Source: a virus (lineage: Duplodnaviria; Caudoviricetes). Taken from it: DNA of 41,199 nucleotides. The stretch lies in the IMG/VR virus record IMGVR_UViG_3300032257_000038, positions 1 through 41,199 of that record; one strand, given 5' to 3'. Positions 9,140 to 34,916 of the stretch are shown piece after piece. A model generated the notes under the pieces. The model made no database searches. It was not told where the DNA came from and saw only the letters and a list, made by a program, of their open reading frames with translations. The position numbers and the translations under genes are program-made. The stretch's first letter is position 1. Every line of letters begins with the position of its first letter.

Positions 9140-9151
9140 AAAGGAAAACCA

Positions 9152-9574
9152 ATGGCAACTTTAATTTTTAGTGACGCATTCGTGTCAATAAATGCGGTAG
9201 ATCTCTCGGACCATGTTAAGTCTGTATCAATAGATTATAGCGCTGACATGCAAGATGATACCGCCATGGGCCTGGATACCAAATCAAATAAGCCAGGGCT
9301 GAAAGATTGGTCGATGAGCGTTGAGTTTCATCAAGATTTTGCCACGTCTAATGTGGATGCCACCCTTTTCGGCCTGGTTGGTTCAACATTTGCGGTTATC
9401 GTGAGGCCGGTAAAGTCTGTGGTCGTCGGCACTACAAATCCAAATTACACGGCTACCGGCGCGCTTGAAAGCTATAACCCTATTGGCGGGTCAGTTGGAG
9501 ATTTAGCCGGCGTATCTGCATCAATAAAGCCTGCCGGTCAAGCGAATGCAACCTTAGTTAGAGCAACGTCATAA
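9152..9574 (+). CDS. Major tail tube protein (paralog 2)
   Basis: VDLSDHVKSV, GLKDWS, TNPNYT, GGSVGDL; directly precedes the tail chaperone. Confidence 0.8.
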   Translation: MATLIFSDAFVSINAVDLSDHVKSVSIDYSADMQDDTAMGLDTKSNKPGLKDWSMSVEFHQDFATSNVDATLFGLVGSTFAVIVRPVKSVVVGTTNPNYTATGALESYNPIGGSVGDLAGVSASIKPAGQANATLVRATS

Positions 9575-9969
9575 TGTTATTAAATGCAGACAAAATATTA
9601 TCTCATGTCACCCTGAAAAGGGTTAAGCTTGATATTCCTGAATGGGGCGGCCATGTGTTTGTGTCAGAAATGAATGGCACGGCCAAAGACCAATATGAAA
9701 ACTCCTTAATGGAAAAGATCGGGGCCGAATATGTCGTATCACAGAAGAATCTAAGGGCAAAGCTTGTGGTTTACTCTGTTACCGACAGTAATGGCCTTAG
9801 ACTTTTTACTGATGATCAAATCCCTGACGTTGGGAAAATGTCTAGCTCAATCCTTGACCGCATCATTGAGAAGTCAAAAGAAGTCGGGAATATCAGCCAC
9901 CAGGAAGAGGAAGAGATTACCAAAAAAAACTCAGACACCAGCCAGGAAGATGGTTCTACTTTACCCTAG
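9574..9969 (+). CDS. Tail assembly chaperone (lambda gpG equivalent)
   Basis: IPEWGG.V.V, D.NG.RLF motifs; slippery site near 3' end. Confidence 0.88.
   Translation: MLLNADKILSHVTLKRVKLDIPEWGGHVFVSEMNGTAKDQYENSLMEKIGAEYVVSQKNLRAKLVVYSVTDSNGLRLFTDDQIPDVGKMSSSILDRIIEKSKEVGNISHQEEEEITKKNSDTSQEDGSTLP
9924..9930 (+). promoter_or_regulatory. -1 ribosomal frameshift slippery heptamer A AAA AAC
   Basis: In-frame X XXY YYZ heptamer; -1 frame stays open to TAG 10143-10145. Confidence 0.85.
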
Positions 9970-10145
9970 CTGAAAAATTAGGGATGACGGTGAGCATGCT
10001 TCTGGAAAACATATCATCGTCTGAGATTGAAGAATGGAAAGCATATTACGCAGTTCAGCGCGAAGATGAAAAAGAGGCCAGCCTAAAGCAGACGCTAGAA
10101 ACTAGCGTGACAAGCAATATGGCGATGTTAAAAGGCAAACGATAG
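9930..10145 (+). CDS. Frameshifted C-terminal part of tail chaperone (gpT equivalent; not in ORF track)
   Basis: -1 frame reads LRHQPGRWFYFTLAEKLGMTVSMLLENISSSEIEEWKAYYAVQRE...KGKR, a gpT-like motif, ending 1 nt before the tape-measure ATG. Confidence 0.85.
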   Translation, partial: LRHQPGRWFYFTLAEKLGMTVSMLLENISSSEIEEWKAYYAVQREDEKEASLKQTLETSVTSNMAMLKGKR

Positions 10146-10146
10146 C

Positions 10147-12000
10147 ATGTCAAGAATCGGCACAATCACCATTGATCTACTCGCCAACTCAACGAGATTC
10201 CTTCGTGATATGGGAAGATCTCGCCGTGCCGTTGACACAATGAACGGTGCTGTTCGTAGCTTAACTAGCGTAGCTGGTGGCCTTGGCTTGGCACTTAGCG
10301 GTGTCGGCATGTCTGCATTAATTAAGAATGCTATCGACGCTGGCGATGAGATTCAAAAGCTTTCCACGAGGCTAGGTGCGTCATCTGAAGCCCTTAGCCA
10401 GTACAAGTTTGTAGCTGAGCAAACAGGGGTTGAGTTCAAAGCGCTAACGATGGCCTGGCAGCGCCAAACGCGCAGGATATCAGAGGCAGCGGTAGGCACC
10501 GGCGAAGCTGTCAAAGCGCTTGACGAGCTTGGGCTTTCTGCAAAAAGATTAAATGATCTTAGTCCAGAAGCGCAGTTTGAAGTTCTTGCTGATGCACTTA
10601 ACGGTGTGGCGTCACAGCAGGATAAAGTAAGGCTTGCATTCAAGTTTTGGGATTCGGGCGGCGTCAAGTTGCTTCAGACTGTGAACGGCGGTGCTGACGC
10701 AATGAGAGCTATGCGCATGGAGGCAGATTCGTTAGGACTGACGTTAACATCCGAAGACACCATGGGGCTTGAGCGAGCTTCTGGCGCAATCACAAACATG
10801 AAGACGGCGGCAAGCGCACTTGGCAATACTCTTGCTGTATGGTTAGGCCCGTCGATAGTTGAGTTGTCTAAGTGGTTTGGTAATATGCTTCCCAGGTCAA
10901 TTCTGTCATCCAGAGGAGCTATCTCAAAAGTAAAGGCAGAAATATTCAGCTTTCTTTCAACCTTAAAAAAATTCGCATTCGATACAAATCAGGTATTCCG
11001 TAATTTACTTCCAAAAAGTGGCATTACTGACGCGATCTTTGGGTCAGAAGAAGAATTCAACAGAAGGCAGAAGTTAATTCTTCAGGACGTCATATTATTA
11101 AGCGAGAAAGCATCCGCTGAATTCTCCAAGCTAATCGACATAGGCGCACAGCTTCAAGAGGGATTCACGTTAGGAAAAGGAGCCATTGAGCCTAGATCTG
11201 AGTTGTCTTCGGTAGGTGGTCGAACACCAGGGGTCGGGAAAAAGAAAGCTGGTGATGCCGTAGATCAAAAAAATAAGCTTCAGGCTCAGCAAAATTCACT
11301 CCAATCTCTTCGTGAGTCACTAATGAGCGAAGAGGAATTAATCAGAGAGAGCTTCCGACGACGACAGCAGCAAATACTTAACGATACAGTTATAGGTGAA
11401 GGCGAAAGGACAGACCTAATGAAACGGGCAGTATTAGAAAGAGACAGGGCTATCTCTTCATCAGAGCGCGCCACGAACAATGCGCGCCTAACTGCTACTT
11501 CCGAATTTATGGGGAATATGGAGTCAGTGTTTGCCGATAAAAATGGGAAGATGGCCAAGTCTGGGCAGGCGTTTGCATTATTTGATATTGGGATCAAAAG
11601 TTATCAGGCGGCAATGTCTGCGTATTCCGCAATGGCCGGCATTCCGGTTGTTGGACCTGGTCTAGGTGTTGCCGCAGCAGCCGCAGCAGTGCTTGCAGGT
11701 CTAAAAAATGCAGCAATGGTTCGCAGCCAGAAAGTTCCTGCTTTTGAGGATGGTGGTGTAATCCCACGTGGGAGATTTGGTTTGGTCGGTGAAGCTGGAC
11801 CTGAATTAGTAAAAGGACCAGGCGAAGTTATAAGCGCCAAGCACACCAAGCAAATTATGAGCGAAAAGGGCGGACCAGGCGTGACGAACAATTTCAACTT
11901 CAACATAAAATCAGATTCAGGGAGAGTCACGCCGGAATCAATTGAGCAGTTAAAGTTCTCAGTATTCGAGGCATTATCAATGGCAGGGTCCAGAGGATAG
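10147..12000 (+). CDS. Tape measure protein (617 aa, short tail)
   Basis: Helical Ala/Leu-rich; IGTITIDL start, IPVVGP and FEDGG..VGEAGPEL C-terminal motifs. Confidence 0.92.
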   Translation: MSRIGTITIDLLANSTRFLRDMGRSRRAVDTMNGAVRSLTSVAGGLGLALSGVGMSALIKNAIDAGDEIQKLSTRLGASSEALSQYKFVAEQTGVEFKALTMAWQRQTRRISEAAVGTGEAVKALDELGLSAKRLNDLSPEAQFEVLADALNGVASQQDKVRLAFKFWDSGGVKLLQTVNGGADAMRAMRMEADSLGLTLTSEDTMGLERASGAITNMKTAASALGNTLAVWLGPSIVELSKWFGNMLPRSILSSRGAISKVKAEIFSFLSTLKKFAFDTNQVFRNLLPKSGITDAIFGSEEEFNRRQKLILQDVILLSEKASAEFSKLIDIGAQLQEGFTLGKGAIEPRSELSSVGGRTPGVGKKKAGDAVDQKNKLQAQQNSLQSLRESLMSEEELIRESFRRRQQQILNDTVIGEGERTDLMKRAVLERDRAISSSERATNNARLTATSEFMGNMESVFADKNGKMAKSGQAFALFDIGIKSYQAAMSAYSAMAGIPVVGPGLGVAAAAAAVLAGLKNAAMVRSQKVPAFEDGGVIPRGRFGLVGEAGPELVKGPGEVISAKHTKQIMSEKGGPGVTNNFNFNIKSDSGRVTPESIEQLKFSVFEALSMAGSRG

Positions 12001-12001
12001 T

Positions 12002-12625
12002 ATGTTCATAGAAACGCCAAGATTTCCAGAAGATATTTCGTATGGTGCGAGGGGCGGTCCAACCTATTCAACGTCTATTGTGAAGAGACTTTCTGGTCGA
12101 GAAATCAGAAATATAAACTGGGCTTACCCGCTTCATAAGTATAATGCCGCGATGGCAGTAAGGGCGATTTCAGATCTTGATACGATCATTGATTTCTTTC
12201 ATGTGACTTCTGGTGCAGCAGATGCTTTTCGGTATAAGGATTGGGCTGACTATAAAACGGTATCAGCGCTCAGCACGCCTACATCAACCGATCAATTGAT
12301 AGGCGTAGGCGATGGGGTAGAGGTTGATTTTCAGCTAACCAAGACTTATCAGGTTGGATCGTCAACTAAAGTCAGAAATATCACCAAGCCAGTCACAGGG
12401 ACAGTATTAATTTCGCTGAATGATGTGACGCAGGGCGCAGGGTGGACGGTTAACACGGTCACCGGCATAGTTACCTTCGCGGTTGCCCCTGGAGGCGGCG
12501 TTAATGTAAAGTGGGGCGGCGAATTTGACGTGCCTGTTCGATTTGAATCCGACGACCTGCAAACGTCTATCGTTGCTTATGACTCTGGTGTTGCCGATAT
12601 TAATATCGTCGAGGTCAGATTATAA
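12002..12625 (+). CDS. Distal tail protein (DUF2460, RcGTA-like)
   Basis: FP.DISYGARGGP, FRYKDWADY, GEFDVPVRF. Confidence 0.92.
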   Translation: MFIETPRFPEDISYGARGGPTYSTSIVKRLSGREIRNINWAYPLHKYNAAMAVRAISDLDTIIDFFHVTSGAADAFRYKDWADYKTVSALSTPTSTDQLIGVGDGVEVDFQLTKTYQVGSSTKVRNITKPVTGTVLISLNDVTQGAGWTVNTVTGIVTFAVAPGGGVNVKWGGEFDVPVRFESDDLQTSIVAYDSGVADINIVEVRL

Positions 12626-13479
12626 TGAAAGAGGTTGACTCATCATTAACATCACTTCTTACAGGAACAGTGACAACGTTTGCCTATTGCGTAAAAATAC
12701 AGAAGAGCGACGGAACCTATTTATATTTCACAGGGTACGATAAAAATTTGGCAGTTGACGGCCAAACTTACGTGGCTAGTGGCGGGATAGACCTTACCAA
12801 AATTAAGGTATCGACAGGAGGCACAGTTGATAACGTTGAAATACATGGGCTTATAGACGGAGGTTCGATTTCAAAGCAGGACATTGAAGATGGCGTTTTG
12901 GTAAATTCTATTGTCAATATTTTCTCGGTGGATTACACGAACCCTCCCGCAGTGATTGACGGCACAAATGTCATCCATGTTTTTGCAGGCCTGGTTTCAA
13001 ATGTTTACATTAAGGACGTGCAGTGGATCGTCGAGGTGCGAGGGCATAAGCAGCGATTAAAACAGCGTGTCGGGATATCCACGTCAAAGTCATGCCGTGC
13101 CGACCTTGGAGATTCAAAGTGTCAAGTGGTTATGACGAGCTACACAGAAACAGGGACGGTAACCTCCGTTTCTGGAAAAAAGATTGCCACAAATATAACC
13201 TTCACCAATGAAGAGCATTACAAAGAAGGCCGGGCCTCAATATCAACAAAAGGGTATCTTGGGGACGTATCATTTGTCAGCGGTGGTGTTGTGACCGTGA
13301 TGGAGAAGGTACGCCACTCTGCGCTTGTTGGAGAATCAATAACGGTAACAGCCGGTTGCGATAAATCTCTAAATACATGTAGAGTGCGCTATAATAACGT
13401 TGTCAATTTCCAAGGTGAACCACATGCTCCAGTTTCAGACGAATGGCTCTCTGGAGTCTATCAATCTTCGCGCCCATGA
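12625..13479 (+). CDS. Baseplate hub protein (DUF2163/BR0599-like)
   Basis: CRADLGDSKC and GCDKSLNTCRVRYNNVVNFQGEPH Cys motifs. Confidence 0.92.
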   Translation: MKEVDSSLTSLLTGTVTTFAYCVKIQKSDGTYLYFTGYDKNLAVDGQTYVASGGIDLTKIKVSTGGTVDNVEIHGLIDGGSISKQDIEDGVLVNSIVNIFSVDYTNPPAVIDGTNVIHVFAGLVSNVYIKDVQWIVEVRGHKQRLKQRVGISTSKSCRADLGDSKCQVVMTSYTETGTVTSVSGKKIATNITFTNEEHYKEGRASISTKGYLGDVSFVSGGVVTVMEKVRHSALVGESITVTAGCDKSLNTCRVRYNNVVNFQGEPHAPVSDEWLSGVYQSSRP

Positions 13480-13855
13480 TGCAGCGATATCAATGGTTGG
13501 CACACCATACCTCCACCAAGGCAGATTGCCAGGGGTAGCGCTGGACTGCATCGGCCTTGTTTCAGAAGCCTATCGGATGGCTGGCTATCCTCATCAAATA
13601 CCAGCAGATTACCGTAGAATCCCTGATGTTCGAGTATTATCTCAGTATGTCAATAAATATTGCATAAAAAAAGACAAGGCAGATATTGGTGACATTATCC
13701 TGATAAGATTCTCTATTGACCCGCAGCATTTCGCCATAATGTCCTACGGCAATAAAATAATTCATGCTTATAATCAGGCAAAAAAAGTGGTTATAGATAA
13801 TTACTCAGAAGAATGGATTAAGAAAACGGTCGGTATTTTTGGAGTTAAAGAATGA
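13400..13855 (+). CDS. NlpC/P60 tail-associated peptidase
   Basis: GTPYLHQGR, LDCIGL, PQHFAI, IIHA; start codon uncertain. Confidence 0.9.
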   Translation: MSISKVNHMLQFQTNGSLESINLRAHDAAISMVGTPYLHQGRLPGVALDCIGLVSEAYRMAGYPHQIPADYRRIPDVRVLSQYVNKYCIKKDKADIGDIILIRFSIDPQHFAIMSYGNKIIHAYNQAKKVVIDNYSEEWIKKTVGIFGVKE

Positions 13856-16800
13856 CTACGACATCACCATTTGGGGGTAGCAGCCATAGCCAGCAAGCGC
13901 AGGAAACAGGTCGCCAGGTACTAGTTGATTTCATTTCTGGAAGAGGCGCAGGACCGCCAAGCACTCCTGTAAATAAAGAGAATATCCCCTCCGTAGGTTA
14001 TGGAGCACCAATCCACGCAATCTATGGTAATGCAAGGGTCTCATGCACCCTCATGTGGGCAGCGCCAATTAATGAGACAAAAACCGTAGAAGAAGTAGAG
14101 TCAGGCGGGAAAGGTGGTAGCTCAACATCATATCAAAGAACGACAAGCCTTTATGATGCAACGTTTGCCCAACTTATCGGGCAAGAAGAAATCGTTGGGA
14201 TTTCAAGGATATGGCTTAACGGAAAAATCTTTTACGAAAATCGTCCGTATTTAACAGGCAAGCCGCTTGACGCTGCAAACAATGCAGAAAATTTCTTTAC
14301 TCTTTACCGTGGAACTAACGACCAAGTTGCCGACACGCTGATGGCCGCTGCAATTGGTGCCGACAACACCCCCGCTTATCGTGGACGATCATACATTGTT
14401 TTTAAAGAGCTACAATTAGCTGATTACGGAAACCGCATCCCGCAAGTTGATGTTGAGGTGGTTCAGTGGGGCACCGGGGCTTATAACGAGACAGTCGCCC
14501 CTATGCCAATATCATTACATTATATTATTGGCGACATAATGACTCGTTGCGGATTTGATAGCGCTGAATACGATGCCACCCAGTTAACCGATCTTGTTGA
14601 TGGATATATTGCCGATTTTAAAACTGACTCAGCGACAATCATTGATAACCTGTCAAAAATATTCAACTTCTATTATTACAATGACGGACAAAAGTTAATT
14701 TTTGCAAAACATCCTTCTCCGGTTCGTCGAGTCGAGCACAATACCTCATGCATGATCAATGAAGATTACTTAATTGGAAATGGCTTCCATGACCAGTTAG
14801 GTCGGCAAGGATACTTCCCTCATGAGGCGGGTACATCGGAAGGTCAGTTCCTAATGATCCGCGCAGCATGTCAGGCTTATCATGCTACTACTGATTCATA
14901 CTGGCTTACCCTGGCGACTTCAATGGGCGATGCTGCAACACTGATGTATAAGCAAGATCCACCATCATCAGGCTCAGGCATACTATATACCCCACATTGG
15001 CTATATGTAATGAAAAAGCCGGTCCAGGCTCAGTCCTTCATTCTGTGTACCAAAATTGTAATGACTTCGGTAGACGCTTTAAATATGCAGGGAACTATTC
15101 CTGCGGGACCAGGATATTACGGCGACCTTACCGTTAAAGTAACCAACCTCTATGATAACGAAAATACTTTCCTGACTTGGCCAAACCCGTATGCCGCCAC
15201 AATAGGCACAGAATATGGTGAACCAGTGTCAATTGTTGCGTCAGGATCAGGATGTTTGGTTACAGCAACAAAGGCCCAGCTTGGCACGCCTGCCGGTGAT
15301 TTAACGGTGAATGTTGCGTACATCGTCAATGCCGGTCCAATGCTGGCGACTTCTGAAATGATGGAAGCTTGGCCAAATTGGCGACAAATAGAATCGGGTG
15401 AGATTGATTGCGCTGTTGATACTCTGCCATGGGCATACGAGGCATTCGACTTACTCTATGCTTTGACCGCAGTGGCAAAATGGAACGATGCAAAAATAAT
15501 AACCGGCGAAACGGTTTCAACAATTTTTGATGTTGATGACGGTCGCACATGGATAAAGCAGGTTGTATCTTCACCTTTTGCATTGCCAGGCACTTACATT
15601 TCATCAACTCGGCCAGGATTTAACCAGTCATCTGTTTACACTGACGAGAATAAAAATATCAATATTTATGCCCCTCAAGGCAGTGGAGAAGTTCAGTTTG
15701 GTAGAGGGCTGACCGACCAAATATCTGCTGGGGATACTCATATCCGGGTAATACTTTCGAGCAATCCGAATAAAACGGTTGACTTTTTCCTGCAAGATGG
15801 CACGGATGTTGGCACTGCTGACCGGTATTACTACCAGCTATCATTGACATCAACCCTAACCACCACAGACATTCCCCTTGCATCGTTCAGCAAGCGACAG
15901 TTAACCGGGGCTGGTTGGACTGAAGTTGGGACAGGCTTACCAGCATTAACCACTATCGATGTTGTTGGGCTTATTTATGAGGGCACAGGATCGGGAACAA
16001 TTGTTTGGCAAGCAGCAAGGCCAATTCCAGAAGTTCAATTGCCGTACACTGTCGGCGTGGCTCCCTATACTGCAAATAGTGTTGACGGCCAACTGCTTGA
16101 TTGGAGGGGATATCCTGGCGTTGGATACCAAGATCCAATGATATGGGACTGGCTCTCACAGGCTGCATATCTGACGCTGATGGTCGATTTCATTGAGGAT
16201 TCCCAGAACGAATACAATACCCTTCATTCTGTCCTTGGGCCGTTCATACCGAGCTACGCATGGGATCGATACGATTCTTTGGATATCGGGGCGACTGCTG
16301 ACACATGGACATGGCTTTGGGCTGACCCGAACAGCGAATGGGTTGGCTATACGGCGAGGGTGGTTGCCGCGTGCGCAAGAACTGCCTGGAAAAATGGAGA
16401 TTCACGGTGCAATACTATAGCGCTTAATTTCCTGACTTGGCTGAATACTAATTGGACAACGCACACGCAATACCCGCCAACCAACTTCCCTGCTTCGATA
16501 GCAACGTGGGCTGCAACAACCGACTATGCCGTTGATGATATTGTTATTCCAACAACGCCAAACGGGAAGGTTTATAAATGTACTGTTGCAGGAACTTCGT
16601 CAGGGTCAGAGCCAACGTGGCCAACAACCATCAATCTTACGGTGGCAGACAATACAGTTACCTGGCAGTGCAGCGGGTATACCTATGGGGCATCCCCAGT
16701 TTACGGCAATTATGACGAGCCGCATGCCGTTGCACTTTGGATGAGGGCGGCTGGGTACTTGCATGCCAATGGTACGAGCACCGCGTTAATGGTTACAATA

Positions 16801-18483
16801 ATGACGCGGTGCTGGGATTATTTGGAAGCACGTTTTCAGCCGACTGACCCGATGGGCGGGACATGGAGCAGCAATCCAGCCGGTGGCGAGTGGTATGGCT
16901 TTTGGGGCGCAGAGATCATGTCAACGCTTTCATTACTGCTAATTACCCCTGATGCTACGGTAGATGACGGGTTAGACGCTCAGAGGACCGCAGCAAGCAT
17001 CAGTAGCGTGACGGTGGCATCAAGAATAGCATCTTACAAAACATGGCTGTCAAGCGTCACACGATCTGTCACCGTGGATAATATTACTGACGTTGCGTTA
17101 AGTGATGATTACACCTTGAAGAAGTCCAACGACAAGGAGTTGCCAAACGAGGTAACGCTTTCATATTTAAGTAAAGCTAGAAATGGCACCAATGATTATC
17201 GGTATTCCAGAAGTCTTGCCAAGGCATCAATTAATAAGGTCGAGGTGTCGGCCCTTGTCGTGATGGAAGGAAAGTCGGCGCAAAGCTTCACGCTGAGAAA
17301 ATTGCTAGAAATATGGTCCCAGGAAAACACCTACTCTTACTCGCAAATAAGTCGGCTATTTGATCCTGGTGACGTTATTGAATTGGTAATCGACGGCGAC
17401 ACCATCCAAATGCAGTTAAAGTCATTGGGGCTAAAAGGTGATGGCTCGGTTGATATTGAGGCCATATCATATGACCCTGAAGTTTATGTCGAGTCGTCTC
17501 AAGATGTATTCGATTCGGGCACAAGCATGGGGCTTTCGTCCATTGCCGATACGCTATTGCAATTGCTTGATATTGCGCTGATTGAAGATGCCCAGGATTA
17601 TTCAGGGTATTATTCAGGAGCCAAGCCAACGTCATCAAATTGGCAGGCCGGTGCAATGTACTCATCAAACAACGGTGGGGCCAGCTACCAGCTTGAAACA
17701 TCGTATACCGGAGGTATTTACTACGGCGTGACCGATGGTGTTCTTGCTTCAGCATCAGCAAACATAATGGATTTAACGTCAACGGTGCAAGTGACAATGG
17801 CCAACGGGACGTTATCGTCTGTAACCGAAGCCGATTTATTTTCAAGCCATAAAGTGAACCTCATCTTAATTGGAAACGAATTAGTTCAGTTCCAGACAGC
17901 AACCCTTGGGGCTCCAGGTGTGTATACGCTGTCAAACCTTTTGCGAGGTAGGAGAGGGACCGAGGGATTTATTTATGGTCACGTTCTCGGTGAAACAGTC
18001 GTTCTTATTAATGGATTTATTAAGGATACTGCGCTCGATACATCTTTAATCGGGGTGTCAAGGCTGCTGAAGGGCGTGACTGCCGGTCAAAACGTTGGCG
18101 ATGTAACAGCTTCATCAGCAACGATAAACAGTAGCAGACTTAAGCCTTACTCACCAGCGCATCTAGCATCTACCCGCGCCGCATCAGGACAGATTGATTT
18201 GACTTGGGAGCGAAGGGCGAGAACAAACGGCGGGTGGAATGATAACGTTGACGTGCCGCTTGATGAAATTTCAGAGCTATATCGTGTTAAGCTATATGAT
18301 GCATTGCCAAGCGCATCGGGGAATCTTTTAGCGACGTTCGATTCATCAGTGAAAAGTTACACGTTAAGCCCTGCAACCATTGATTTATATTACGCCACTG
18401 CGACCAGCACAGTATATTTAAGCGTCAATCAAGTAAGCGGTGTCGTCGGTGACGGATACATTACGGAGAAAACCATAACATGA
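13852..18483 (+). CDS. Large tail tip/host-specificity protein (RcGTA megatron-like) with inserted glycoside hydrolase-like and carbohydrate-binding domains
   Basis: YGAPIHAIYG, PAYRGRSYIVF, YGNRIP, GNELVQF, LLRGRRGTE, WERRAR motifs flank an insertion at ~14720-17070 with TSEGQ. Confidence 0.9.
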   Translation: MTTTSPFGGSSHSQQAQETGRQVLVDFISGRGAGPPSTPVNKENIPSVGYGAPIHAIYGNARVSCTLMWAAPINETKTVEEVESGGKGGSSTSYQRTTSLYDATFAQLIGQEEIVGISRIWLNGKIFYENRPYLTGKPLDAANNAENFFTLYRGTNDQVADTLMAAAIGADNTPAYRGRSYIVFKELQLADYGNRIPQVDVEVVQWGTGAYNETVAPMPISLHYIIGDIMTRCGFDSAEYDATQLTDLVDGYIADFKTDSATIIDNLSKIFNFYYYNDGQKLIFAKHPSPVRRVEHNTSCMINEDYLIGNGFHDQLGRQGYFPHEAGTSEGQFLMIRAACQAYHATTDSYWLTLATSMGDAATLMYKQDPPSSGSGILYTPHWLYVMKKPVQAQSFILCTKIVMTSVDALNMQGTIPAGPGYYGDLTVKVTNLYDNENTFLTWPNPYAATIGTEYGEPVSIVASGSGCLVTATKAQLGTPAGDLTVNVAYIVNAGPMLATSEMMEAWPNWRQIESGEIDCAVDTLPWAYEAFDLLYALTAVAKWNDAKIITGETVSTIFDVDDGRTWIKQVVSSPFALPGTYISSTRPGFNQSSVYTDENKNINIYAPQGSGEVQFGRGLTDQISAGDTHIRVILSSNPNKTVDFFLQDGTDVGTADRYYYQLSLTSTLTTTDIPLASFSKRQLTGAGWTEVGTGLPALTTIDVVGLIYEGTGSGTIVWQAARPIPEVQLPYTVGVAPYTANSVDGQLLDWRGYPGVGYQDPMIWDWLSQAAYLTLMVDFIEDSQNEYNTLHSVLGPFIPSYAWDRYDSLDIGATADTWTWLWADPNSEWVGYTARVVAACARTAWKNGDSRCNTIALNFLTWLNTNWTTHTQYPPTNFPASIATWAATTDYAVDDIVIPTTPNGKVYKCTVAGTSSGSEPTWPTTINLTVADNTVTWQCSGYTYGASPVYGNYDEPHAVALWMRAAGYLHANGTSTALMVTIMTRCWDYLEARFQPTDPMGGTWSSNPAGGEWYGFWGAEIMSTLSLLLITPDATVDDGLDAQRTAASISSVTVASRIASYKTWLSSVTRSVTVDNITDVALSDDYTLKKSNDKELPNEVTLSYLSKARNGTNDYRYSRSLAKASINKVEVSALVVMEGKSAQSFTLRKLLEIWSQENTYSYSQISRLFDPGDVIELVIDGDTIQMQLKSLGLKGDGSVDIEAISYDPEVYVESSQDVFDSGTSMGLSSIADTLLQLLDIALIEDAQDYSGYYSGAKPTSSNWQAGAMYSSNNGGASYQLETSYTGGIYYGVTDGVLASASANIMDLTSTVQVTMANGTLSSVTEADLFSSHKVNLILIGNELVQFQTATLGAPGVYTLSNLLRGRRGTEGFIYGHVLGETVVLINGFIKDTALDTSLIGVSRLLKGVTAGQNVGDVTASSATINSSRLKPYSPAHLASTRAASGQIDLTWERRARTNGGWNDNVDVPLDEISELYRVKLYDALPSASGNLLATFDSSVKSYTLSPATIDLYYATATSTVYLSVNQVSGVVGDGYITEKTIT

Positions 18484-19286
18484 CAACAGTACGATTAGTG
18501 ATGCCTGAGATCAGCGCATCGCAAGCCAGTAAAGAAATAACTCATAACGAAGCATTAAGGATGATTGACGCACTTATGCAGGGAGTCGTAAAGGACAGAA
18601 CGCTAACCGCCCCACCAGGATCTCCGGTAGAGGGAGACGTTCATATTCCGCTTGCCACGGCAACGGGCGCATGGGTAGGTCAGGAAAACACATTAGCCCA
18701 TTATTATAACGCCACCTGGTATTTTTACACGATGCCAACAAACTTCACAATTTGGAGTATTGAAGACGCGGCTGTCATCCAGTGGAGTGGATCAGCGTGG
18801 AATGTGGTCATCAATAAAAGCGGCAAACTATACAAAACAGTCACCGGCAACACCACGCTAACTGGTATCGAAGAAAGCAATAGTATTATCGAAGTGGCAG
18901 ATGGAGGAGGGCTGGCAGCCGATTTCAATCTGACCGTATCAACGATTGAAAAGGTATGGCATGCTTATAATGCAACCAACTATGTCATGACCGTAAAAAC
19001 AAGTGGTGGTTCGGGGCAGGCTGTTGACCCAGGCAGGCGTGCTGTAATTTATGGCGACGGTACTAATGTGGTGTCTGCCCACACGGCGGCAACAGACGGT
19101 ATGGTTTTCAGAAATACGATCGGCCTACCACAGTATTCAGTATCAAGCGCTCCGGCTGCTGCCGCTGCAAATAACGGACACTTAATATGGGTATCGGATG
19201 GCGATGCAGGGGCTAAATGTTTGGCTGCATCTGATGGCACGAATTGGAAGCGAATAGCGCTTGGCGCGACAATCTCAGCGACATAA
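18480..19286 (+). CDS. Tail fibre protein with N-terminal DUF2793-like domain
   Basis: SQASKEITHNEAL..ID, PPGSP.EGD, ATGAW.GQ; C-terminal SDGTNWKR. Confidence 0.85.
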   Translation: MTTVRLVMPEISASQASKEITHNEALRMIDALMQGVVKDRTLTAPPGSPVEGDVHIPLATATGAWVGQENTLAHYYNATWYFYTMPTNFTIWSIEDAAVIQWSGSAWNVVINKSGKLYKTVTGNTTLTGIEESNSIIEVADGGGLAADFNLTVSTIEKVWHAYNATNYVMTVKTSGGSGQAVDPGRRAVIYGDGTNVVSAHTAATDGMVFRNTIGLPQYSVSSAPAAAAANNGHLIWVSDGDAGAKCLAASDGTNWKRIALGATISAT

Positions 19287-19319
19287 AAAAAGCCATAGAC
19301 CTTTTGGGAGTATGGCTTT
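19285..19319 (-). terminator. Intrinsic terminator (minus strand, possibly bidirectional)
   Basis: AAAGCCATA...TATGGCTTT stem with A7 at 19285-19291 on the plus strand. Confidence 0.7.
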
Positions 19320-19354
19320 AGATGAACACACAGCTTGGAGAAACAATGTCTTTA
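19285..19354 (-). ncRNA. Candidate ~70-nt small RNA with anti-RBS sequence
   Basis: Bounded by a minus-strand TTGACA-16-TATACT promoter and a minus-strand hairpin plus U7; contains CAUUGUUUCUCCAA. Confidence 0.5.
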
Positions 19355-19360
19355 AATCAA

Positions 19361-19388
19361 AGTATACACGGAAGTTTCAAATTGTCAA
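19361..19388 (-). promoter_or_regulatory. Sigma70-type promoter, leftward
   Basis: TTGACA (19388-19383), 16-nt spacer, TATACT (19366-19361). Confidence 0.55.
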
Positions 19389-19408
19389 ATTAAAATAAAG
19401 GTACTTCC

Positions 19409-19684
19409 ATGGGCGAAGAGATTGATTACATTAAAATAGGTGTTGGTATATTTATGACAACTTTATTAGGCGGTCTAGGTGTGTTGCGATGGGTAGGCAA
19501 GCGTCAAGTTGAACGAATTGATAAGATAGAGGACAGTTACGCCAAAGCCGTTGATATCGTTGATTTACACAATAAAGTAGACAGACACTACGAATCGACG
19601 ATAAGAGATATTAATGAATCAAGAAAAGAAGTTTTAGCAAGACTTGATATGGTAATTGGGGCAAATCAAAATGGGCGATCTTAG
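19409..19684 (+). CDS. Single-TM lysis-cassette protein (holin/antiholin-like)
   Basis: N-terminal TM plus coiled tail, immediately upstream of the endolysin. Confidence 0.6.
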   Translation: MGEEIDYIKIGVGIFMTTLLGGLGVLRWVGKRQVERIDKIEDSYAKAVDIVDLHNKVDRHYESTIRDINESRKEVLARLDMVIGANQNGRS

Positions 19685-20051
19685 TAGGAATTTTAGCCGG
19701 AAAGAATTCGCATGTAAGTGTGGCTGCGGATTTGACACGGTTGATGCTGAATTAATTAACGTAATGCAGATGAATGTTAGAGATAGATTTGGGAAAATAT
19801 TGGTCCCCAGTGGATGCCGATGCTACACGCATAATATAAAGTCAGGTGGGTCGAAATCTTCTCAGCACTTAAAAGGCAAGGCATGTGATTTTATCGCCAC
19901 AGAGCACGACATGGAATATATTTACGATTACCTGTGCAATAAGTTCCCTGATAAGTTCGGAATAGGGGCGTATATCGACAAAGAAGAGAACACCGTCCGA
20001 ATTCATTTTGACGTTAGGTCGGCATGCGCAAGATGGACAAAGCCAATCTAA
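19671..20051 (+). CDS. Endolysin, peptidase M15 family
   Basis: NFSRKEFACKCGCG, SGCRC..HN, SQHLKGKACD, IHFDVR; start set at ATG 19671. Confidence 0.92.
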   Translation: MGDLSRNFSRKEFACKCGCGFDTVDAELINVMQMNVRDRFGKILVPSGCRCYTHNIKSGGSKSSQHLKGKACDFIATEHDMEYIYDYLCNKFPDKFGIGAYIDKEENTVRIHFDVRSACARWTKPI

Positions 20052-20062
20052 AGGAGAAAGAA

Positions 20063-20560
20063 ATGAGTATATTTTCATCGGTACTGACTAAAGTGGCAGA
20101 TATAGCAACGGGTGGCATAGCAGATAAAGCAATTGACGCGGTTAAAGAATACTTTCCTCCTGATCTATCTCCTGAGCAGAAAGCCAATATTGAATTAAAG
20201 ATGAAGAACATTGAGCTTGAGTACCAGCGCATGGTTGAAAATGCGCTGGTTGAAGCCAGTGAGTCACTGAACAAGCGAATAGCAATTAATGAGGGTACAG
20301 CTAAAGACTTATTAGCCTTACCAATAATTGGTCGGATACTTTTGTTTTGTCGTGGCGCACAAAGGCCAATATGGGGCTTCGGCGTTCTCTATATGGACTA
20401 CATGGTTTATTCAGGAGCGTGGTCGTTAAAGGAGGGGCAGGAAGCTAGCGCATTTTGGGTGATAAACTTGCTTGTCCTTGGTTTTTTGTTTGGTGAGCGA
20501 ACTGTTAAGAACCTCACCCCATTGATTCTTGGGTTCATGGGGCGAGTCGGGAAGACTTAA
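20063..20560 (+). CDS. Holin, GTA 3TM-like family
   Basis: RPIWGF, two C-terminal TMs, GFLFGERTVK; ATG 20063 behind AAGGAG. Confidence 0.75.
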   Translation: MSIFSSVLTKVADIATGGIADKAIDAVKEYFPPDLSPEQKANIELKMKNIELEYQRMVENALVEASESLNKRIAINEGTAKDLLALPIIGRILLFCRGAQRPIWGFGVLYMDYMVYSGAWSLKEGQEASAFWVINLLVLGFLFGERTVKNLTPLILGFMGRVGKT

Positions 20561-20577
20561 TATTAATCTACATTGTA

Positions 20578-20793
20578 TCAATTTAGTGGTTTTTTTATGG
20601 ACACTACAGCGGTATACGTAAATCCACCTGATCCAGTATCTCTCTGGGATATGTATACATTGACCTTGGTTACTTCGTCTACTTCCAATTCTTGACGACG
20701 TACCACATAGTCAAGAATAATTTCCTTTAATTCGACATCTTCTATCAGCGTACTAATTACCCTCTCGTGAATGATGCTGTCTTTAATATTCAT
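20578..20793 (-). CDS. Hypothetical protein
   Basis: AGGAG RBS; last gene of the leftward operon. Confidence 0.7.
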   Translation of the reverse strand: MNIKDSIIHERVISTLIEDVELKEIILDYVVRRQELEVDEVTKVNVYISQRDTGSGGFTYTAVVSIKKPLN

Positions 20794-21573: not shown

Positions 21574-21611
21574 TTTTGTTTCTCCGGTGGTTGTGTGTGA
21601 TCAATAACTAA

Positions 21612-21640
21612 ATATTAACAGAGGCACTGCCACCTGTCAA
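21612..21640 (-). promoter_or_regulatory. Sigma70-type promoter for the imm-like gene
   Basis: TTGACA-17-TAATAT with TGn extended -10; GGCACTGCC palindrome in the spacer. Confidence 0.75.
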
Positions 21641-21653: not shown

Positions 21654-21914
21654 CTACATTCTATTTTCTGATGACATACGAATAAGCAGACATAGCCTTT
21701 TAGACCAGCTCTTTGCCATAGCTATATCTCCAAGCTCAAGCATTTCATTCACCTTTTTAGCGGCTTCATGAACTGATTCCTTGTGACGCAATAGCGCTGA
21801 GCCAACCTTCTTTGATTTTACCTCATTATCGGTAGGAGGTCGGCGCACGTCATTAATAAACGCATGTGATTTTACGTCATGAATCACATCAGCATAGCTT
21901 TTTAATTTATGCAT
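21654..21914 (-). CDS. Hypothetical protein
   Basis: ORF coupled to the sigma-factor stop; start could be 21926. Confidence 0.65.
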   Translation of the reverse strand: MHKLKSYADVIHDVKSHAFINDVRRPPTDNEVKSKKVGSALLRHKESVHEAAKKVNEMLELGDIAMAKSWSKRLCLLIRMSSENRM

Positions 21915-22431
21915 GCCGACCCCCATTAAGGAATTCTCGTGCTTTGCCGATAGCCCTTAACACCATTGATTGGGCTGTTGCTCTGTCGGTGTTACGCTTG
22001 GCCCCCATTTCTTCAAACGTCATGTCTTCAAAAAATCTTTCGTAAAGCGCATTCTGATGATTTTCCGACAGCGAGTTTAATATTTTTTCTATATCGCAAA
22101 TCATAATTACATGCTTCTCAAGGATTGGTTGCTGCCTAGTGTCATGGATTTCCTCAGAAAAGCTTAGCGTAAAAATAGCTGGGGTAATAGGGCTGCTTGG
22201 CCTATTTTTCCTTTTCTGGTCTATTCTACGGTGTCTTCTAAGCTCCTGAATGATTGCATTTTTAGCTACAACCATAGCGAAACGTTCGGGCATTTCGTCT
22301 CTGTCAGGATGAAAGAAGATGGCGATGCTTGCCACCTGAATAAAATCATCCTTATCAGATATCGGAGAAAAACATTTTTTGTAGTGGATGGCTGCGTTCG
22401 TTGCGATTTCGATAATTTCGTGGTTGTTCAT
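21907..22431 (-). CDS. Sigma-70-like (ECF-size) RNA polymerase sigma factor
   Basis: Region 2 (DDFIQ...FA...KNAIIQELRR) and region 4 HTH (LSE..QNAL..RFFEDMTFEEMG...RAIGKAR); ATG 22431 behind AGGTGG. Confidence 0.8.
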   Translation of the reverse strand: MNNHEIIEIATNAAIHYKKCFSPISDKDDFIQVASIAIFFHPDRDEMPERFAMVVAKNAIIQELRRHRRIDQKRKNRPSSPITPAIFTLSFSEEIHDTRQQPILEKHVIMICDIEKILNSLSENHQNALYERFFEDMTFEEMGAKRNTDRATAQSMVLRAIGKAREFLNGGRHA

Positions 22432-22438
22432 GAGCCAC

Positions 22439-22618
22439 CTATTTGTCAAGCAATAGATAAGATAAGCAAGCAATGAAAGATGATACGCCAGAGAAAATCA
22501 ATATGATGGCGAAGTCTTTCCATTTCCAGTTACTAAACTGACCGTTAGACAATAAAAGCAAAACGGTGGTTATAACGATTAAGCTAATCAGAAATACGTA
22601 GGCGATAAGGTTAGGCAT
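22439..22618 (-). CDS. Small two-TM membrane protein (59 aa, not in ORF track)
   Basis: Hand translation MPNLIAYVFLISLIVITTVLLLLSNGQFSNWKWKDFAIILIFSGVSSFIACLSYLLLDK; fills the operon gap exactly. Confidence 0.7.
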   Translation of the reverse strand: MPNLIAYVFLISLIVITTVLLLLSNGQFSNWKWKDFAIILIFSGVSSFIACLSYLLLDK

Positions 22619-23009
22619 TTGATTTCGCCCCCATTAGGAGCATGGCTACAAATCCCGCCGAAATTAAAGCTATCGAGCTTGGTTCGGGGATGCTTACCGC
22701 GCCAGTAGTTATATTGCCCCTCTTTTGAGGGGATGATCTTGACTCTGGCTCATCTTCCAGAATTTTATCAACCTTATCTATCAAATTTTCAGCTTTAGTT
22801 ATGATTGCGCTGAGACTTTCCTTAACCCCTGAGTCACAACAGCAGCATCCGCTCTTATTACTTATGGCGACAATTGCAACGATAGCAACGATGCCAAGGG
22901 TTGCAAATGCAATTGCTGCGATTGCCATCTGCATGAAACCTGACCGGCTTCGCACTCGGCGAATAACTCGCCTTGGCTGAGATTTAACTTCCTGACTTTG
23001 ATTTTCCAT
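22611..23009 (-). CDS. Membrane protein with C-terminal PEP-CTERM-like sorting signal
   Basis: Ends VSIPEPSSIALISAGFVAMLLMGAKSNA; basic N-terminus, TM, CCCC, short helical segment. Confidence 0.75.
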   Translation of the reverse strand: MENQSQEVKSQPRRVIRRVRSRSGFMQMAIAAIAFATLGIVAIVAIVAISNKSGCCCCDSGVKESLSAIITKAENLIDKVDKILEDEPESRSSPQKRGNITTGAVSIPEPSSIALISAGFVAMLLMGAKSNA

Positions 23010-23483: not shown

Positions 23484-23515
23484 TTTTAATGGCCTCTGTT
23501 AATGTGTATGCTTAA

Positions 23516-23544
23516 ATAATATCAGCGGCAATGCGCCTTGTCAA
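23516..23544 (-). promoter_or_regulatory. Leftward early promoter
   Basis: TTGACA-17-TATTAT. Confidence 0.8.
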
Positions 23545-23568
23545 TATTAAAATAAATTATCTTTTCAC

Positions 23569-23597
23569 TTGACTCGCAAGACGCATGGCGCTAATAT
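23569..23597 (+). promoter_or_regulatory. Rightward early promoter
   Basis: TTGACT-17-TAATAT with an AT-rich shared upstream region. Confidence 0.75.
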
Positions 23598-23649
23598 TGT
23601 TTCCGTAGCAACAAGAAACACAATTTAATGACCACAATGGAGAAACGAA

Positions 23650-24126
23650 ATGAAACTTACAATTATTAGATATAAAGAGGAAAAGCGCCTAGGAACAGGC
23701 GACGTGGTAACGCCAGGGCTGCTTATCACCGATATTGATGGCGCTAACCCTATTGATTTAGTTACGCTTGAGGCCGCATGGCATAACAATGAACGTGGGA
23801 TTTCATGCTTGCCACCGGGGATATATGAGCTTCACGCTGGAAGGGAAATTAACGAAGATCATCTATTTGGGGCATACATCAACTTTACGATAGTCGGTGG
23901 ATCTGCATTTATGACTCAGAATGAAGCTACTGGTGATGGTAGATATGGCTTGTCACTGGTAGGTCGAGGTGAAAATTTAGCTGGCAATATAGGTGTCGGA
24001 ACAGCGATCCAAGAATATACCTTGGAGCTAGCCAATTCAATGACAGCGGTCAGATATTTATCCAGTTTGCTTATGAATGATTACCGGCGCGATATTCCTA
24101 ACACACTTGAGATTGAGGTGGCGTGA
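23650..24126 (+). CDS. DUF5675-like protein, divergent
   Basis: TPG.L, TLE..W..N..GISCLPPG.YEL; the family's usual His/Cys motif is not seen. Confidence 0.7.
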   Translation: MKLTIIRYKEEKRLGTGDVVTPGLLITDIDGANPIDLVTLEAAWHNNERGISCLPPGIYELHAGREINEDHLFGAYINFTIVGGSAFMTQNEATGDGRYGLSLVGRGENLAGNIGVGTAIQEYTLELANSMTAVRYLSSLLMNDYRRDIPNTLEIEVA

Positions 24127-27474: not shown

Positions 27475-27488
27475 TTGGAGAAAGTCAA

Positions 27489-27722: not shown

Positions 27723-27747
27723 AAAATAAATCAAATTGGAGAAACAA

Positions 27748-28806: not shown

Positions 28807-29193
28807 ATGAGAATAATTAAGGATATAGATAGAGACGAGTATGGGCGTCGATACGTTCATGCGCAATGCACTCGTTGCTTTAAAGTTCATCGCATACATA
28901 AGCATTTAATAATAAGGGGAGTTATTGAAGATTGTTGTCGCTTTACTAAGAATGAGAAAATAAATGCGCTCCAAGCTTTGGAAGACCTTTCCGATAAAAG
29001 GAAATATGACTCTTCTTACGATTTTGTTATGACGGCGATTCCTTTTATATATGAAATGTCAGAGTATGACGCGAAATGGCTGCGCCGAGAAATAAATAAC
29101 ATAAGGGAGCTTCAGACTGCACCGAAGAAATACAAGCAAATTAATCTGATCAGGAAGCTATATAAGATTCAACGACCCGAAGATATTAGTTGA
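28807..29193 (+). CDS. Hypothetical protein with CxxC
   Basis: GGAG RBS; CTRC...CC. Confidence 0.65.
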   Translation: MRIIKDIDRDEYGRRYVHAQCTRCFKVHRIHKHLIIRGVIEDCCRFTKNEKINALQALEDLSDKRKYDSSYDFVMTAIPFIYEMSEYDAKWLRREINNIRELQTAPKKYKQINLIRKLYKIQRPEDIS

Positions 29194-29218: not shown

Positions 29219-29223
29219 TATCT

Positions 29224-29654: not shown

Positions 29655-29670
29655 AGCACACGGAGAAACA

Positions 29671-30426
29671 ATGATGCATTACGTGATAGCTAAAGACACT
29701 TTTTTTGATGAATTTGACGGCATGGATAGCGATTACATTTCAATTGAATGTAAAACCAAAGCTGAGTTAACCACTGTGCTGGCCAATGTTGACGACCACC
29801 GTTACTATCAGCTAACGGCAATCAACCGCGTGGACATCGTTACGATGAACGGGCGTGAGGTGACGAAATTCAGCTCACCTTCTGACACATGTTGGTTTCA
29901 TGAGAATCGACCGTTTAAATTGAAGGATAGCCCTGACACAGTTGAGTATACATCAGAAAGTCAACCTGAATTGTCGTATGCCTCAGAAGCAAGTGCCGGT
30001 GTTGATTTGCCTGCCAACCTTAATCAGTTTGAAGTTGTGTCGCTTGACCCAGGTGAAGGGATGATGATTTCAACAGGCATTTGTGTTGACATGCAAAGCA
30101 AGCTAATGATGGCAATGGTTTGCCCTAAGTCTGGGTTAGGGACACTTGGCTTACGTAAGGTTGAGGTAGGTGGTCATGGGATCAATCTATCAAACGGCGT
30201 TGGTATAATTGATTCTGATTACCATGGGGAAATAAAGGTCGGGTTGGTCAATAATACTGACAGTGTTTTTGTGATTCACCCTAATGACTACATTGCGCAG
30301 ATGGTTTTCCTACCAATTTTAAAGCCTAAGCTTTCTAAGGTTGCTTGGATTAAAGGTGAGACAGAGCGCGGGAGTAAAGGGTTTGGTGAAATGACCAGCA
30401 TTAGAAATACTGGTGGCTCGCTATGA
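29671..30426 (+). CDS. dut: Trimeric dUTPase with N-terminal extension
   Basis: AGVDL, PKSGL, GIIDSDYHGEI, IAQ, ERG.KGFG. Confidence 0.9.
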   Translation: MMHYVIAKDTFFDEFDGMDSDYISIECKTKAELTTVLANVDDHRYYQLTAINRVDIVTMNGREVTKFSSPSDTCWFHENRPFKLKDSPDTVEYTSESQPELSYASEASAGVDLPANLNQFEVVSLDPGEGMMISTGICVDMQSKLMMAMVCPKSGLGTLGLRKVEVGGHGINLSNGVGIIDSDYHGEIKVGLVNNTDSVFVIHPNDYIAQMVFLPILKPKLSKVAWIKGETERGSKGFGEMTSIRNTGGSL

Positions 30427-34871: not shown

Positions 34872-34916
34872 TAGAAACGCTAGAAGATTAACCAATCACT
34901 TTTTTGGAGAAATGAA

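What the first reader, a model, noticed from the sequence alone, without database searches (positions are those of the whole stretch)
19285..19388. Candidate phage small RNA complementary to the ribosome-binding sites of several early genes
Seen: a self-contained minus-strand unit (TTGACA-16-TATACT, ~70 nt, hairpin plus U7) with no ORF, between the tail fibre and lysis genes. Its 5' half, GACAUUGUUUCUCCAAGCUGUGUGU, is complementary to the initiation regions of dut (GGAGAAACAATG 29662-29673, 12 nt, plus upstream CACAC), the Cas4-like nuclease (TTGGAGAAACAA 27736-27747, 12 nt), the imm-like gene (GGAGAAACAA plus ACACACA, 21576-21598 minus), and 9-nt matches at 23638, 27475 and 34904. These best matches are all non-structural genes. 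Inference: a trans-acting multi-target translational repressor for the early-to-late switch, or a host-mRNA silencer. Alternative: cis-antisense to a 15-codon plus-strand mini-ORF (19346-19393, MSLNQSIHGSFKLSN) ahead of the lysis cassette.
Basis: partly seen in the sequence, partly recalled or inferred. Interest (0 to 1): 0.72.

Follow-up and report, generated by a model that had tools for sequence, protein, structure and literature searches.

The report
Phage RNA mirroring early-gene ribosome sites
An uncultured phage carries a promoter-to-terminator unit predicted to make a 69-base RNA whose front half is complementary to the ribosome-landing sites of six of its own early genes, so one RNA likely turns their translation down, although no transcript has been seen and a leftover of a classic single-target antisense switch remains a serious alternative.

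Summary
Observation confirmed. A near-consensus sigma-70 promoter and a U7 terminator enclose about 69 nt on the minus strand; 1 of 200 shuffled genomes holds such a pair. The predicted RNA folds like P22 Sar, with CUCC in a loop, but fails Sar membership: no antirepressor gene, different start-codon offset, no Rfam hit, own model E=1.1. Its seed mirrors (T)GGAGAAA(C), found at 6 of 28 early and 0 of 31 late starts; GGAGAAAC-ATG occurs about 10 times per bacterial genome. A second CA-rich box accompanies it at 3 of 4 GGAGAAAC starts against 2 of 55 others. Against: plain duplex energies are no better than with unrelated phages, phage G002's starts pair as well, and a former ribosome site on the plus strand would give the same matches. 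No homologue was found, so no covariation test was possible. Best reading (0.45): trans-acting damper of early-gene translation, working beside an operator-binding repressor. Main rival (0.27): orphan Sar-type cis RNA damping lysis genes. The scan has reported this kind before on other DNA (21 notes, unchecked).

The parts
19285..19353 (-). predicted small RNA, about 69 nt, two hairpins (start site inferred 7 nt after the -10 box)
   Evidence: no transcript data
19361..19388 (-). sigma-70 promoter, perfect -35 (19388-19383), 16-nt spacer without the operator motif, -10 TATACT (19366-19361)
19389..19402 (-). AT-rich UP-element-like stretch resembling that of promoter 23544; overlaps the mini-ORF stop and the ribosome site of 19409 on the plus strand
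   Evidence: function inferred
19335..19348 (-). seed: anti-Shine-Dalgarno CUCC (19337-19340) in the predicted loop, flanked by anti-spacer and anti-AUG
19326..19332 (-). second box, UGUGUGU, complementary to CA-rich elements upstream of the imm, dut and 23650 ribosome sites
19285..19320 (-). intrinsic terminator hairpin plus U7, overlapping the tail-fibre stop codon; also the likely end of read-through from the leftward early operon
19346..19393 (+). 15-codon mini-ORF under the promoter; 5-nt spacer after GGAG; in frame with the 19409 ORF, one TAA between; possible cis target or by-product of the anti-RBS seed
   Evidence: no NCBIfam hit for the 23-aa extended form
18480..19286 (+). tail fibre-like gene (DUF2793), upstream neighbour
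19409..19684 (+). putative holin-like membrane protein, first gene of the lysis cassette (endolysin M15 follows); holin role inferred from position and one hydrophobic segment
   Evidence: no named family
21576..21598 (-). candidate target: leader of imm (superinfection immunity family), first gene behind operator-bearing promoter 21640; binding -17.2 kcal/mol, rank 1 of 59
23638..23646 (+). candidate target: ribosome site of 23650, first gene of the replication operon; -16.1, rank 2
29662..29673 (+). candidate target: ribosome site of dUTPase; -15.4, rank 4
27736..27747 (+). candidate target: ribosome site of the Cas4-like nuclease (ATG 27748); -12.4, rank 5
34904..34912 (+). candidate target: ribosome site of 34917 (antirepressor KilA-C-like, lead only); -11.5, rank 7
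27475..27483 (+). weak candidate target: ribosome site of 27489; -8.4, rank 11
21623..21631 (.). operator-like palindrome in the spacer of promoter 21640 (the motif also sits in promoters 23544 at 23527-23535 and 29190 at 29202-29210, and nowhere else in the genome)
   Evidence: binding protein inferred (HTH gene 29269)

Best explanation
The unit is a promoter-terminator pair predicted to make a 69-nt RNA that likely pairs in trans with the shared ribosome-binding motif of several of the phage's own early genes and would lower their translation. Shown by sequence: the promoter, the terminator, the complementarity, and an operator-like motif in three early promoters but not in this one. Inferred: host sigma-70 polymerase makes the RNA from the start of infection. 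It accumulates, its CUCC loop seeds on GGAG, and pairing extends over the spacer/AUG and a CA-rich enhancer box, which blocks 30S loading, best on imm, 23650 and dut. Because its promoter lacks the operator, the RNA stays on when a Cro-like repressor (probably 29269) closes the early promoters, a second, translational lock on early genes. The late transcript that runs into the lysis genes is perfectly complementary to it, so late in infection the two probably neutralise each other.
For: Unit is not chance: 1 of 200 shuffles. Motif (T)GGAGAAA(C) at 6 of 28 early and 0 of 31 late starts, p=0.008. GGAGAAAC-N1-4-ATG: 4 of 59 phage starts against 609 matches in 61 bacterial genomes, 0-25 each. Starts with a match of 9 nt or more: 7 of 53 here, at most 1 in each of 30 other phage locus sets. 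The RNA's mirror is closer to the target set (sum of six best exact matches 61) than any of the 59 real starts (best 59); 0 of 300 shuffles that keep UUCUCC reach it, 4 of 300 by energy. Second box at 3 of 4 vs 2 of 55 starts, p=0.0012. Binding after opening costs -15 to -17 kcal/mol for three targets. The cis ORF is weak: 15 codons, shortest spacer class (5 nt), no antirepressor remnant, ATG 15 nt from the -10 box against 6 nt in 9 of 9 Sar cassettes. An unrelated-sequence unit of the same build (promoter, C-rich anti-SD, terminator, 23-codon mirror ORF) sits in phage G002. In mycobacteriophage Angelica the single reverse copy of the start-associated motif lies in the loop of a strong hairpin.
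Against: No homologue was found, so no conservation or covariation. Given a GGAG at all, the early bias is not significant (6 of 15 vs 0 of 5, p=0.26). Plain duplex energies: early vs late p=0.44; 9 of 59 pseudo-RNAs made from real starts score as well; P22 and G002 starts pair as well (4 of 58 own vs 4 of 101 G002 at -14 or better). P22 Sar itself, a known cis RNA, matches three of the same starts over 9 nt. G002 has TGGAGAAA at 6 of 101 starts with no matching RNA found, so the style exists without this RNA; 2 of those 6 lie in DNA shared with the window. The G002 RNA prefers its own starts only weakly (27 of 101 vs 9 of 58 vs 10 of 52 at -10 or better). ACA elements are generic enhancers (PMC3879156, abstract). 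The 5' hairpin alone is not significant. Every match is also what a real or former plus-strand ribosome site in the phage's early style would give (the Cas4 start reaches 59 vs 61).
Confidence: 0.45

Rival explanations
1. Orphan Sar-type cis-antisense cassette. The unit once guarded an antirepressor-like moron next to the tail fibre gene; the gene body is gone, and the RNA is now kept because it pairs with the late mRNA just ahead of the lysis genes (blocks the mini-ORF, invites RNase III cutting, opposes transcription) and so delays or damps lysis.
For: Same order and spacing as P22: upstream stop, AAGCC..GGCTT hairpin, 18 nt (P22 19), CTTGGAGAAA, ATG, -10 box read in frame as Ser-Ile; RNA 69 vs 70 nt with the same two-hairpin fold. 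A model built from 9 enteric Sar cassettes ranks this unit first in the window, end to end. Perfect 69-bp duplex, -123.6 kcal/mol. Degraded ant morons beside tail genes, and an effect of the moron on late transcription, are described (PMC2629481 section 15). An antisense RNA at an endolysin gene is proposed to delay lysis in PAK_P4 (PMC12197685). Mini-ORF bases pair weakly with the 19409 ribosome site (unpaired 0.35 vs 0.65 without them).
Against: Model hit E=1.1, 13.1 bits; control DNA gave a 15.6-bit chance hit. No Rfam sar hit at E up to 10. ATG offset 15 vs 6 nt in 9 of 9. No ant remnant: only 20 nt lie between the -35 box and the next ATG. The RNA ends 44 nt short of the lysis ribosome site. 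Any short anti-RBS RNA gene must have this layout. Neither Rha/ant-like gene of this phage has such a cassette.
Confidence: 0.27
2. Vestige: a decayed Sar-like cassette or early-gene start that may still be transcribed but does nothing that is selected.
For: No homologue was found and so no sign of selection; 5' hairpin not significant; degraded ant morons exist (PMC2629481).
Against: The promoter is 11 of 12 with an intact AT-rich upstream element, and the unit fills the 122-bp gap with no leftover DNA.
Confidence: 0.1
3. No dedicated RNA gene: the hairpin is the terminator of the leftward early operon, which reads through the lysis cassette on its antisense strand; the promoter match and anti-RBS are incidental.
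For: No other strong minus-strand terminator lies between 23544 and 19291; shuffled genomes hold 0.9 promoters of 11/12 on average.
Against: A promoter placed 69 nt before a strong terminator arose in 1 of 200 shuffles; 8 of 120 viral and 7 of 120 bacterial promoter-plus-anti-SD pattern hits had even a loose terminator.
Confidence: 0.1
4. The RNA is aimed outward: at host mRNAs or at early genes of a competing phage that uses the same ribosome-site style.
For: G002, which shares 23513-23820 at 94-97% and so probably the host, has 4 starts that bind at -14 or better, as many as the phage itself.
Against: The motif is rare in the 61 bacterial genomes sampled; the longest exact matches (12, 12, 10 nt) are in the phage's own genome; self-targets would be hit too.
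Confidence: 0.08

Closest known systems
Sar RNA of Salmonella phage P22 (Rfam sar; immI arc-sar-ant; record NC_002371)
   Same: About 70 nt, promoter on the opposite strand inside the first codons of an ORF, two hairpins with CUCC in the 5' loop, AAGCC..GGCUU terminator at the end of the upstream gene, next to a tail gene in the late operon. Sar blocks the ant ribosome site (PMC7968456 passage).
   Different: No antirepressor follows; the RNA also covers the AUG (offset 15 vs 6); no significant sequence or model match. Its seed has 9-12 nt matches at six own early starts, whereas Sar has at most 7 nt at 52 other P22 starts.
c4 RNA of P1/P7 and CI RNA of P4 (recalled; named as closest in earlier scan notes)
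   Same: Phage RNA with two short boxes that act in trans on repeated sites near translation starts.
   Different: Those are processed from a longer transcript and act on one antirepressor operon (recalled); this unit has its own promoter and terminator and scattered targets; no Rfam hit at gathering score.
Start-associated sequences (SAS) of Cluster K mycobacteriophages (PMC3203893, passages)
   Same: A phage-specific extended ribosome site on non-structural genes plus one copy in the opposite orientation; the paper leaves open whether an RNA or protein reads it. In Angelica the reverse copy sits in a hairpin loop (one record, 14.6 of 59.6 kb examined).
   Different: SAS is 13 bp with 11-19 copies per genome; here the shared core is 8-9 nt at six starts. 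No sequence relationship.
Multi-target anti-SD/anti-enhancer bacterial sRNAs (GcvB, PMC3879156 abstract; CyaR-type anti-SD loop, recalled)
   Same: Own promoter, U-tailed terminator, G/U-rich box against ACA enhancers, anti-SD in a loop.
   Different: Phage-encoded, predicted targets are the phage's own genes; Hfq dependence untested.
Phage trans-acting sRNAs VpdS, PreS, 24B_1 and antisense RNA PAK_P4as15 (review PMC12197685, parts 1-2 of 6)
   Same: Phage-encoded short RNAs that change phage or host mRNA use; PAK_P4as15 lies at an endolysin gene.
   Different: None in the parts read is described as mirroring a ribosome-site motif shared by several own early genes.

Membership tests
P22 Sar family | Antisense sigma-70 promoter inside the first codons of an opposite-strand ORF, -10 box in frame | tested here: met
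   Frame 0, read as Ser-Ile, as in P22; 1 in 3 by chance
P22 Sar family | About 70-nt RNA, anti-SD in 5' loop, 3' terminator hairpin at the end of the upstream gene | tested here: met
   Predicted folds; transcript not shown
P22 Sar family | Cis target is an antirepressor gene | tested here: not met
   ORF stops after 15 codons; next gene is holin-like
P22 Sar family | Start codon 6 nt before the -10 box | tested here: not met
   15 nt here, 6 nt in 9 of 9 enteric cassettes
P22 Sar family | Sequence/structure match to the family model | tested here: not met
   No Rfam sar hit at E up to 10; own model top hit in the window but E=1.1, control 15.6 bits
c4 / CI immunity RNAs | Match to the Rfam models | tested here: not met
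   0 hits at gathering score in the window; none in 19150-19500 at E up to 10
c4 / CI immunity RNAs | Processed from a precursor shared with its target operon (recalled) | not testable with these tools
   The unit has its own promoter and terminator, which argues against; processing needs RNA data
Trans-encoded multi-target sRNA | Free-standing promoter and intrinsic terminator, no ORF on the RNA strand | tested here: met
Trans-encoded multi-target sRNA | Seed pairs with several distant translation starts better than controls | tested here: inconclusive
   Yes by exact match and second box; no by duplex energy against P22, G002 and pseudo-RNAs
Trans-encoded multi-target sRNA | Seed conserved and covarying with targets in relatives | not testable with these tools
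   No relative with the unit was found; nearest capsid 52%, Sak4 36-39%
Trans-encoded multi-target sRNA | Expressed; represses targets; chaperone dependence | not testable with these tools
   Needs experiments
Type I toxin-antitoxin antitoxin | Cis target encodes a small hydrophobic toxin | tested here: not met
   The 15-aa product is short and polar by inspection

The most novel reading that the evidence does not exclude
Phages tag a set of early genes with a private extended ribosome site and encode a free-standing mirror RNA, perhaps derived from Sar-type cassettes, that switches the whole set down at once: an RNA-based regulon working beside the operator-repressor circuit. The same logic may explain the unread start-associated sequences of Cluster K mycobacteriophages, whose lone reverse copy lies in a hairpin loop in Angelica.
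Probability: 0.4. Interest if true: 0.72.

Novelty: new variant of a known kind. Interest (0 to 1): 0.5.

Why it matters
Known phage antisense RNAs of this build (Sar, OOP) act on one overlapping gene. A 69-nt RNA that co-represses scattered early genes through a shared ribosome-site motif would add a translational timer to lytic development. It would also give a testable answer to what reads start-associated motifs, a question left open in PMC3203893. This instance is weak on its own because it has no relatives; the Angelica loop offers a cultured phage in which to test the idea. If the rival holds, it is an ordinary orphan Sar cassette with a possible role in lysis timing.

Tried and rejected
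Relatives: blastn of 18500-20500 and 19280-19400 against phages gave no real match; endolysin, terminase and 34917 found no related viral contigs; the exact seed found none; tail-fibre relatives are distant, and the two annotated ones lack the arrangement; promoter-plus-seed patterns gave 15 viral hits, none homologous, 120 viral and 120 bacterial hits mostly chance, and 9 vs 8 control hits in 401 genomes. Rha and P22_AR_N searches in 401 genomes gave 4 and 1 hits over cut-off; the four leaders looked at showed no such cassette. Sequencing runs: no RNA holder listed; run X1 may be the source and shows no variants; run X2 laid nothing on 18400-20600. Rejected ideas: (1) that the motif is just the general bacterial ribosome site, dropped, though the true host is unknown; (2) that G002 has no such unit, an error of my filter, corrected; (3) Sar homology, not shown; (4) read-through fusion of the mini-ORF with the holin-like gene: in frame, but 1 in 3 by chance and no data; (5) a late promoter inside 19287-19408: no motif shared with other late leaders. 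Literature searches listed no paper on a phage RNA mirroring the ribosome sites of several own early genes; the library lacks most subscription papers, and the primary Sar structure paper was not held. No supplements were opened.

Full report
Setting. The window is a complete circular siphophage genome: the first 126 nt repeat at the end. PHROGs place packaging, head and tail genes at 200-19286, an M15 endolysin at 19656, a leftward early operon (23483 to 20578: RusA-like, an ECF-like sigma factor, imm) and rightward replication genes (Sak4, SSB, helicase, Cas4-like nuclease, HTH, dUTPase, primase, Rha). No integrase and no clear CI repressor were found among the 59 ORFs scanned. It has no close relative in the collections searched: capsid 52% at best, Sak4 36-39%, terminase 47%. 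The host is unknown.

The observation. The promoter scores 11 of 12 with a perfect -35; the terminator has U7 on the minus strand and three U on the plus strand. A promoter of this quality with a strong terminator within 130 nt appeared in 1 of 200 shuffled genomes. The whole RNA folds at z -3.8, but this is carried by the terminator; the 5' hairpin with CUCC in its loop is within the shuffle range (25 of 200). The terminator has a second possible job: it is the only strong minus-strand terminator below the leftward early operon.

Regulatory context. A palindrome GGCA-N-TGC(C/G) occurs at three places in the genome, all in spacers of early promoters (21640, 23544, 29190). The RNA's promoter lacks it. 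The two best predicted targets are first genes behind early promoters: imm behind 21640, and 23650 behind 23569, which has a weaker look-alike of the motif. That a Cro-like protein (29269) binds the motif is inference.

Tests of trans action, for. GGAGAAA is the commonest 7-mer at the phage's starts (9 of 59). The longer forms GGAGAAAC or TGGAGAAA occur at 6 of 28 early and 0 of 31 late starts (p=0.008). GGAGAAAC-N1-4-ATG occurs 609 times in 61 bacterial genomes of the class of G003, 0-25 per genome, against 4 of 59 starts here. Of 30 other phage locus sets (some duplicates, 15 of them picked by a seed-containing pattern) none has more than one start with a 9-nt match; the window has 7 of 53. 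The mirror of the RNA is nearer to the set of starts than any real start (61 vs at most 59), and 0 of 300 shuffles that keep the anti-SD core reach it. A CA-rich box accompanies 3 of 4 GGAGAAAC starts and 2 of 55 others (p=0.0012), and the RNA has its complement. With opening costs, the six named starts rank 1, 2, 4, 5, 7 and 11 of 59; they were chosen by their match, so this is not independent.

Tests of trans action, against. Plain duplex energies do not separate early from late (p=0.44). 9 of 59 pseudo-RNAs made from real starts do as well. The RNA pairs with P22 starts at -25.4 to -20.8, and G002 offers 4 of 101 starts at -14 or better against 4 of 58 own. P22 Sar matches three of the same starts over 9 nt. 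Conditional on having GGAG, the early bias is p=0.26. G002 has TGGAGAAA at 6 of 101 starts without a matching RNA that I could find. ACA motifs are general translation enhancers (PMC3879156, abstract). Above all, a real or former plus-strand ribosome site in the phage's early style predicts the same matches.

The Sar comparison. In the P22 record sar is a 70-nt antisense RNA whose promoter lies in the first codons of ant. Side by side, the window shows the same order, nearly the same spacing, the same CTTGGAGAAA site, the -10 box read as Ser-Ile, and the same predicted fold. Eight more enteric cassettes were fetched. A model from these nine ranks the unit first in the window, end to end, but at E=1.1, and control DNA gave a higher chance score. 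Rfam finds no sar match. The ATG lies 15 nt from the -10 box against 6 in all nine, and the ORF ends after 15 codons with no room for a remnant. So it is built like Sar but is not shown to be a member. Degraded ant morons beside tail genes are described (PMC2629481, section 15), so a relic origin stays plausible, and pairing with any late mRNA that crosses the region is unavoidable (-123.6 kcal/mol).

Analogues. G002, an otherwise unrelated 61-kb phage sharing 23513-23820 at 94-97%, has no blastn match to the RNA but carries its own unit of this build at 1319-1404: promoter, unstructured C-rich anti-SD stretch, terminator, and a 23-codon mirror ORF (no significant Rfam hit). Its box CCUCUC mirrors GAGAGG, found at 5 of 101 G002 starts, 0 of 58 window starts and 2 of 52 P22 starts: suggestive and weak. 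PMC3203893 (passages) describes start-associated sequences on non-structural genes of Cluster K mycobacteriophages, with one reverse copy and no known reader. In 14.6 kb of Angelica I found 8 forward copies and 1 reverse; the reverse copy forms the 10-nt loop of a long hairpin (z -4.9 for the 201 nt folded), inside annotated gene 92. This is one record and was not followed across the cluster.

Earlier scan notes. A words look-up returned 21 notes on units of this kind in other genomes, 8 shown, some claiming covariation, and notes on Sar-like units including one over a decayed antirepressor. They are unchecked and not counted as evidence; one search prompted the tests, whose results moved my reading from the cis relic towards trans action. 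None was listed for this genome or look-alike stretches.

Verdict. A real transcription unit is likely (about 0.85). Function: trans damper of own early genes 0.45; Sar-type cis action on the lysis leader 0.27; vestige 0.10; no dedicated RNA 0.10; host or competitor target 0.08. The first two can both hold. New variant of a known kind; interest 0.5, limited by the lack of relatives and of RNA data.

Papers seen: PMC12197685 parts 1-2 of 6; PMC2629481 passages and section 15; PMC7968456, PMC13397905 and PMC3203893 passages; PMC3879156 abstract; 10.1101/2024.10.31.621285 search listing only. Statements on c4/CI and CyaR are recalled.

Noticed in passing
L399:13560-13760 (HM152764, phage Angelica): The single reverse-orientation start-associated sequence forms the 10-nt apical loop of a long hairpin, preceded by a 17-bp hairpin, inside annotated hypothetical gene 92: a candidate anti-SAS RNA in a cultured phage.
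   Followed up: partly
L106:1319-1404 (G002): Stand-alone promoter, C-rich anti-SD stretch and terminator; candidate analogous RNA with weak preference for its own phage's starts.
   Followed up: partly
window 21623-21631, 23527-23535, 29202-29210: Operator-like palindrome found only in the spacers of three early promoters.
   Followed up: partly
window 29190-29258: Strong promoter followed at once by a perfect 12-bp terminator with U7 just before the ribosome site of the HTH gene 29269; implies a very short RNA or antitermination.
   Followed up: no
window 19285-20578: No strong terminator ends the leftward early operon before 19291, so early transcripts may run antisense across the whole lysis cassette.
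   Followed up: partly
window 21907-22473 (-): ECF-like sigma factor (TIGR02937 above cut-off) with no homologue returned from the 5.8-billion-protein search.
   Followed up: partly
window 31468-31546 (-): Hairpin plus U-rich tail on the strand opposite the primase leader, second-best hit of the Sar model (E=2.6); no good -35 box seen.
   Followed up: no
window 23513-23820 and G002 33752-34883: The divergent early promoter region and the start of gene 23650 are shared at 94-97% with unrelated phage G002, where an extra gene of about 270 codons sits between the two pieces.
   Followed up: partly
L106:1-900 and L109 (G002 ends): Tandem repeats of about 129 bp across the genome ends.
   Followed up: no
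L089:10001-10090: Promoter, about 55 nt with two TGTTTCTCC copies, then a terminator, in an unrelated low-GC phage contig: another candidate anti-SD RNA.
   Followed up: no
window 22611-23009 (-) and 39408-40502 (+): A small PEP-CTERM-like protein at cut-off level and an FG-GAP repeat protein in a phage genome.
   Followed up: no
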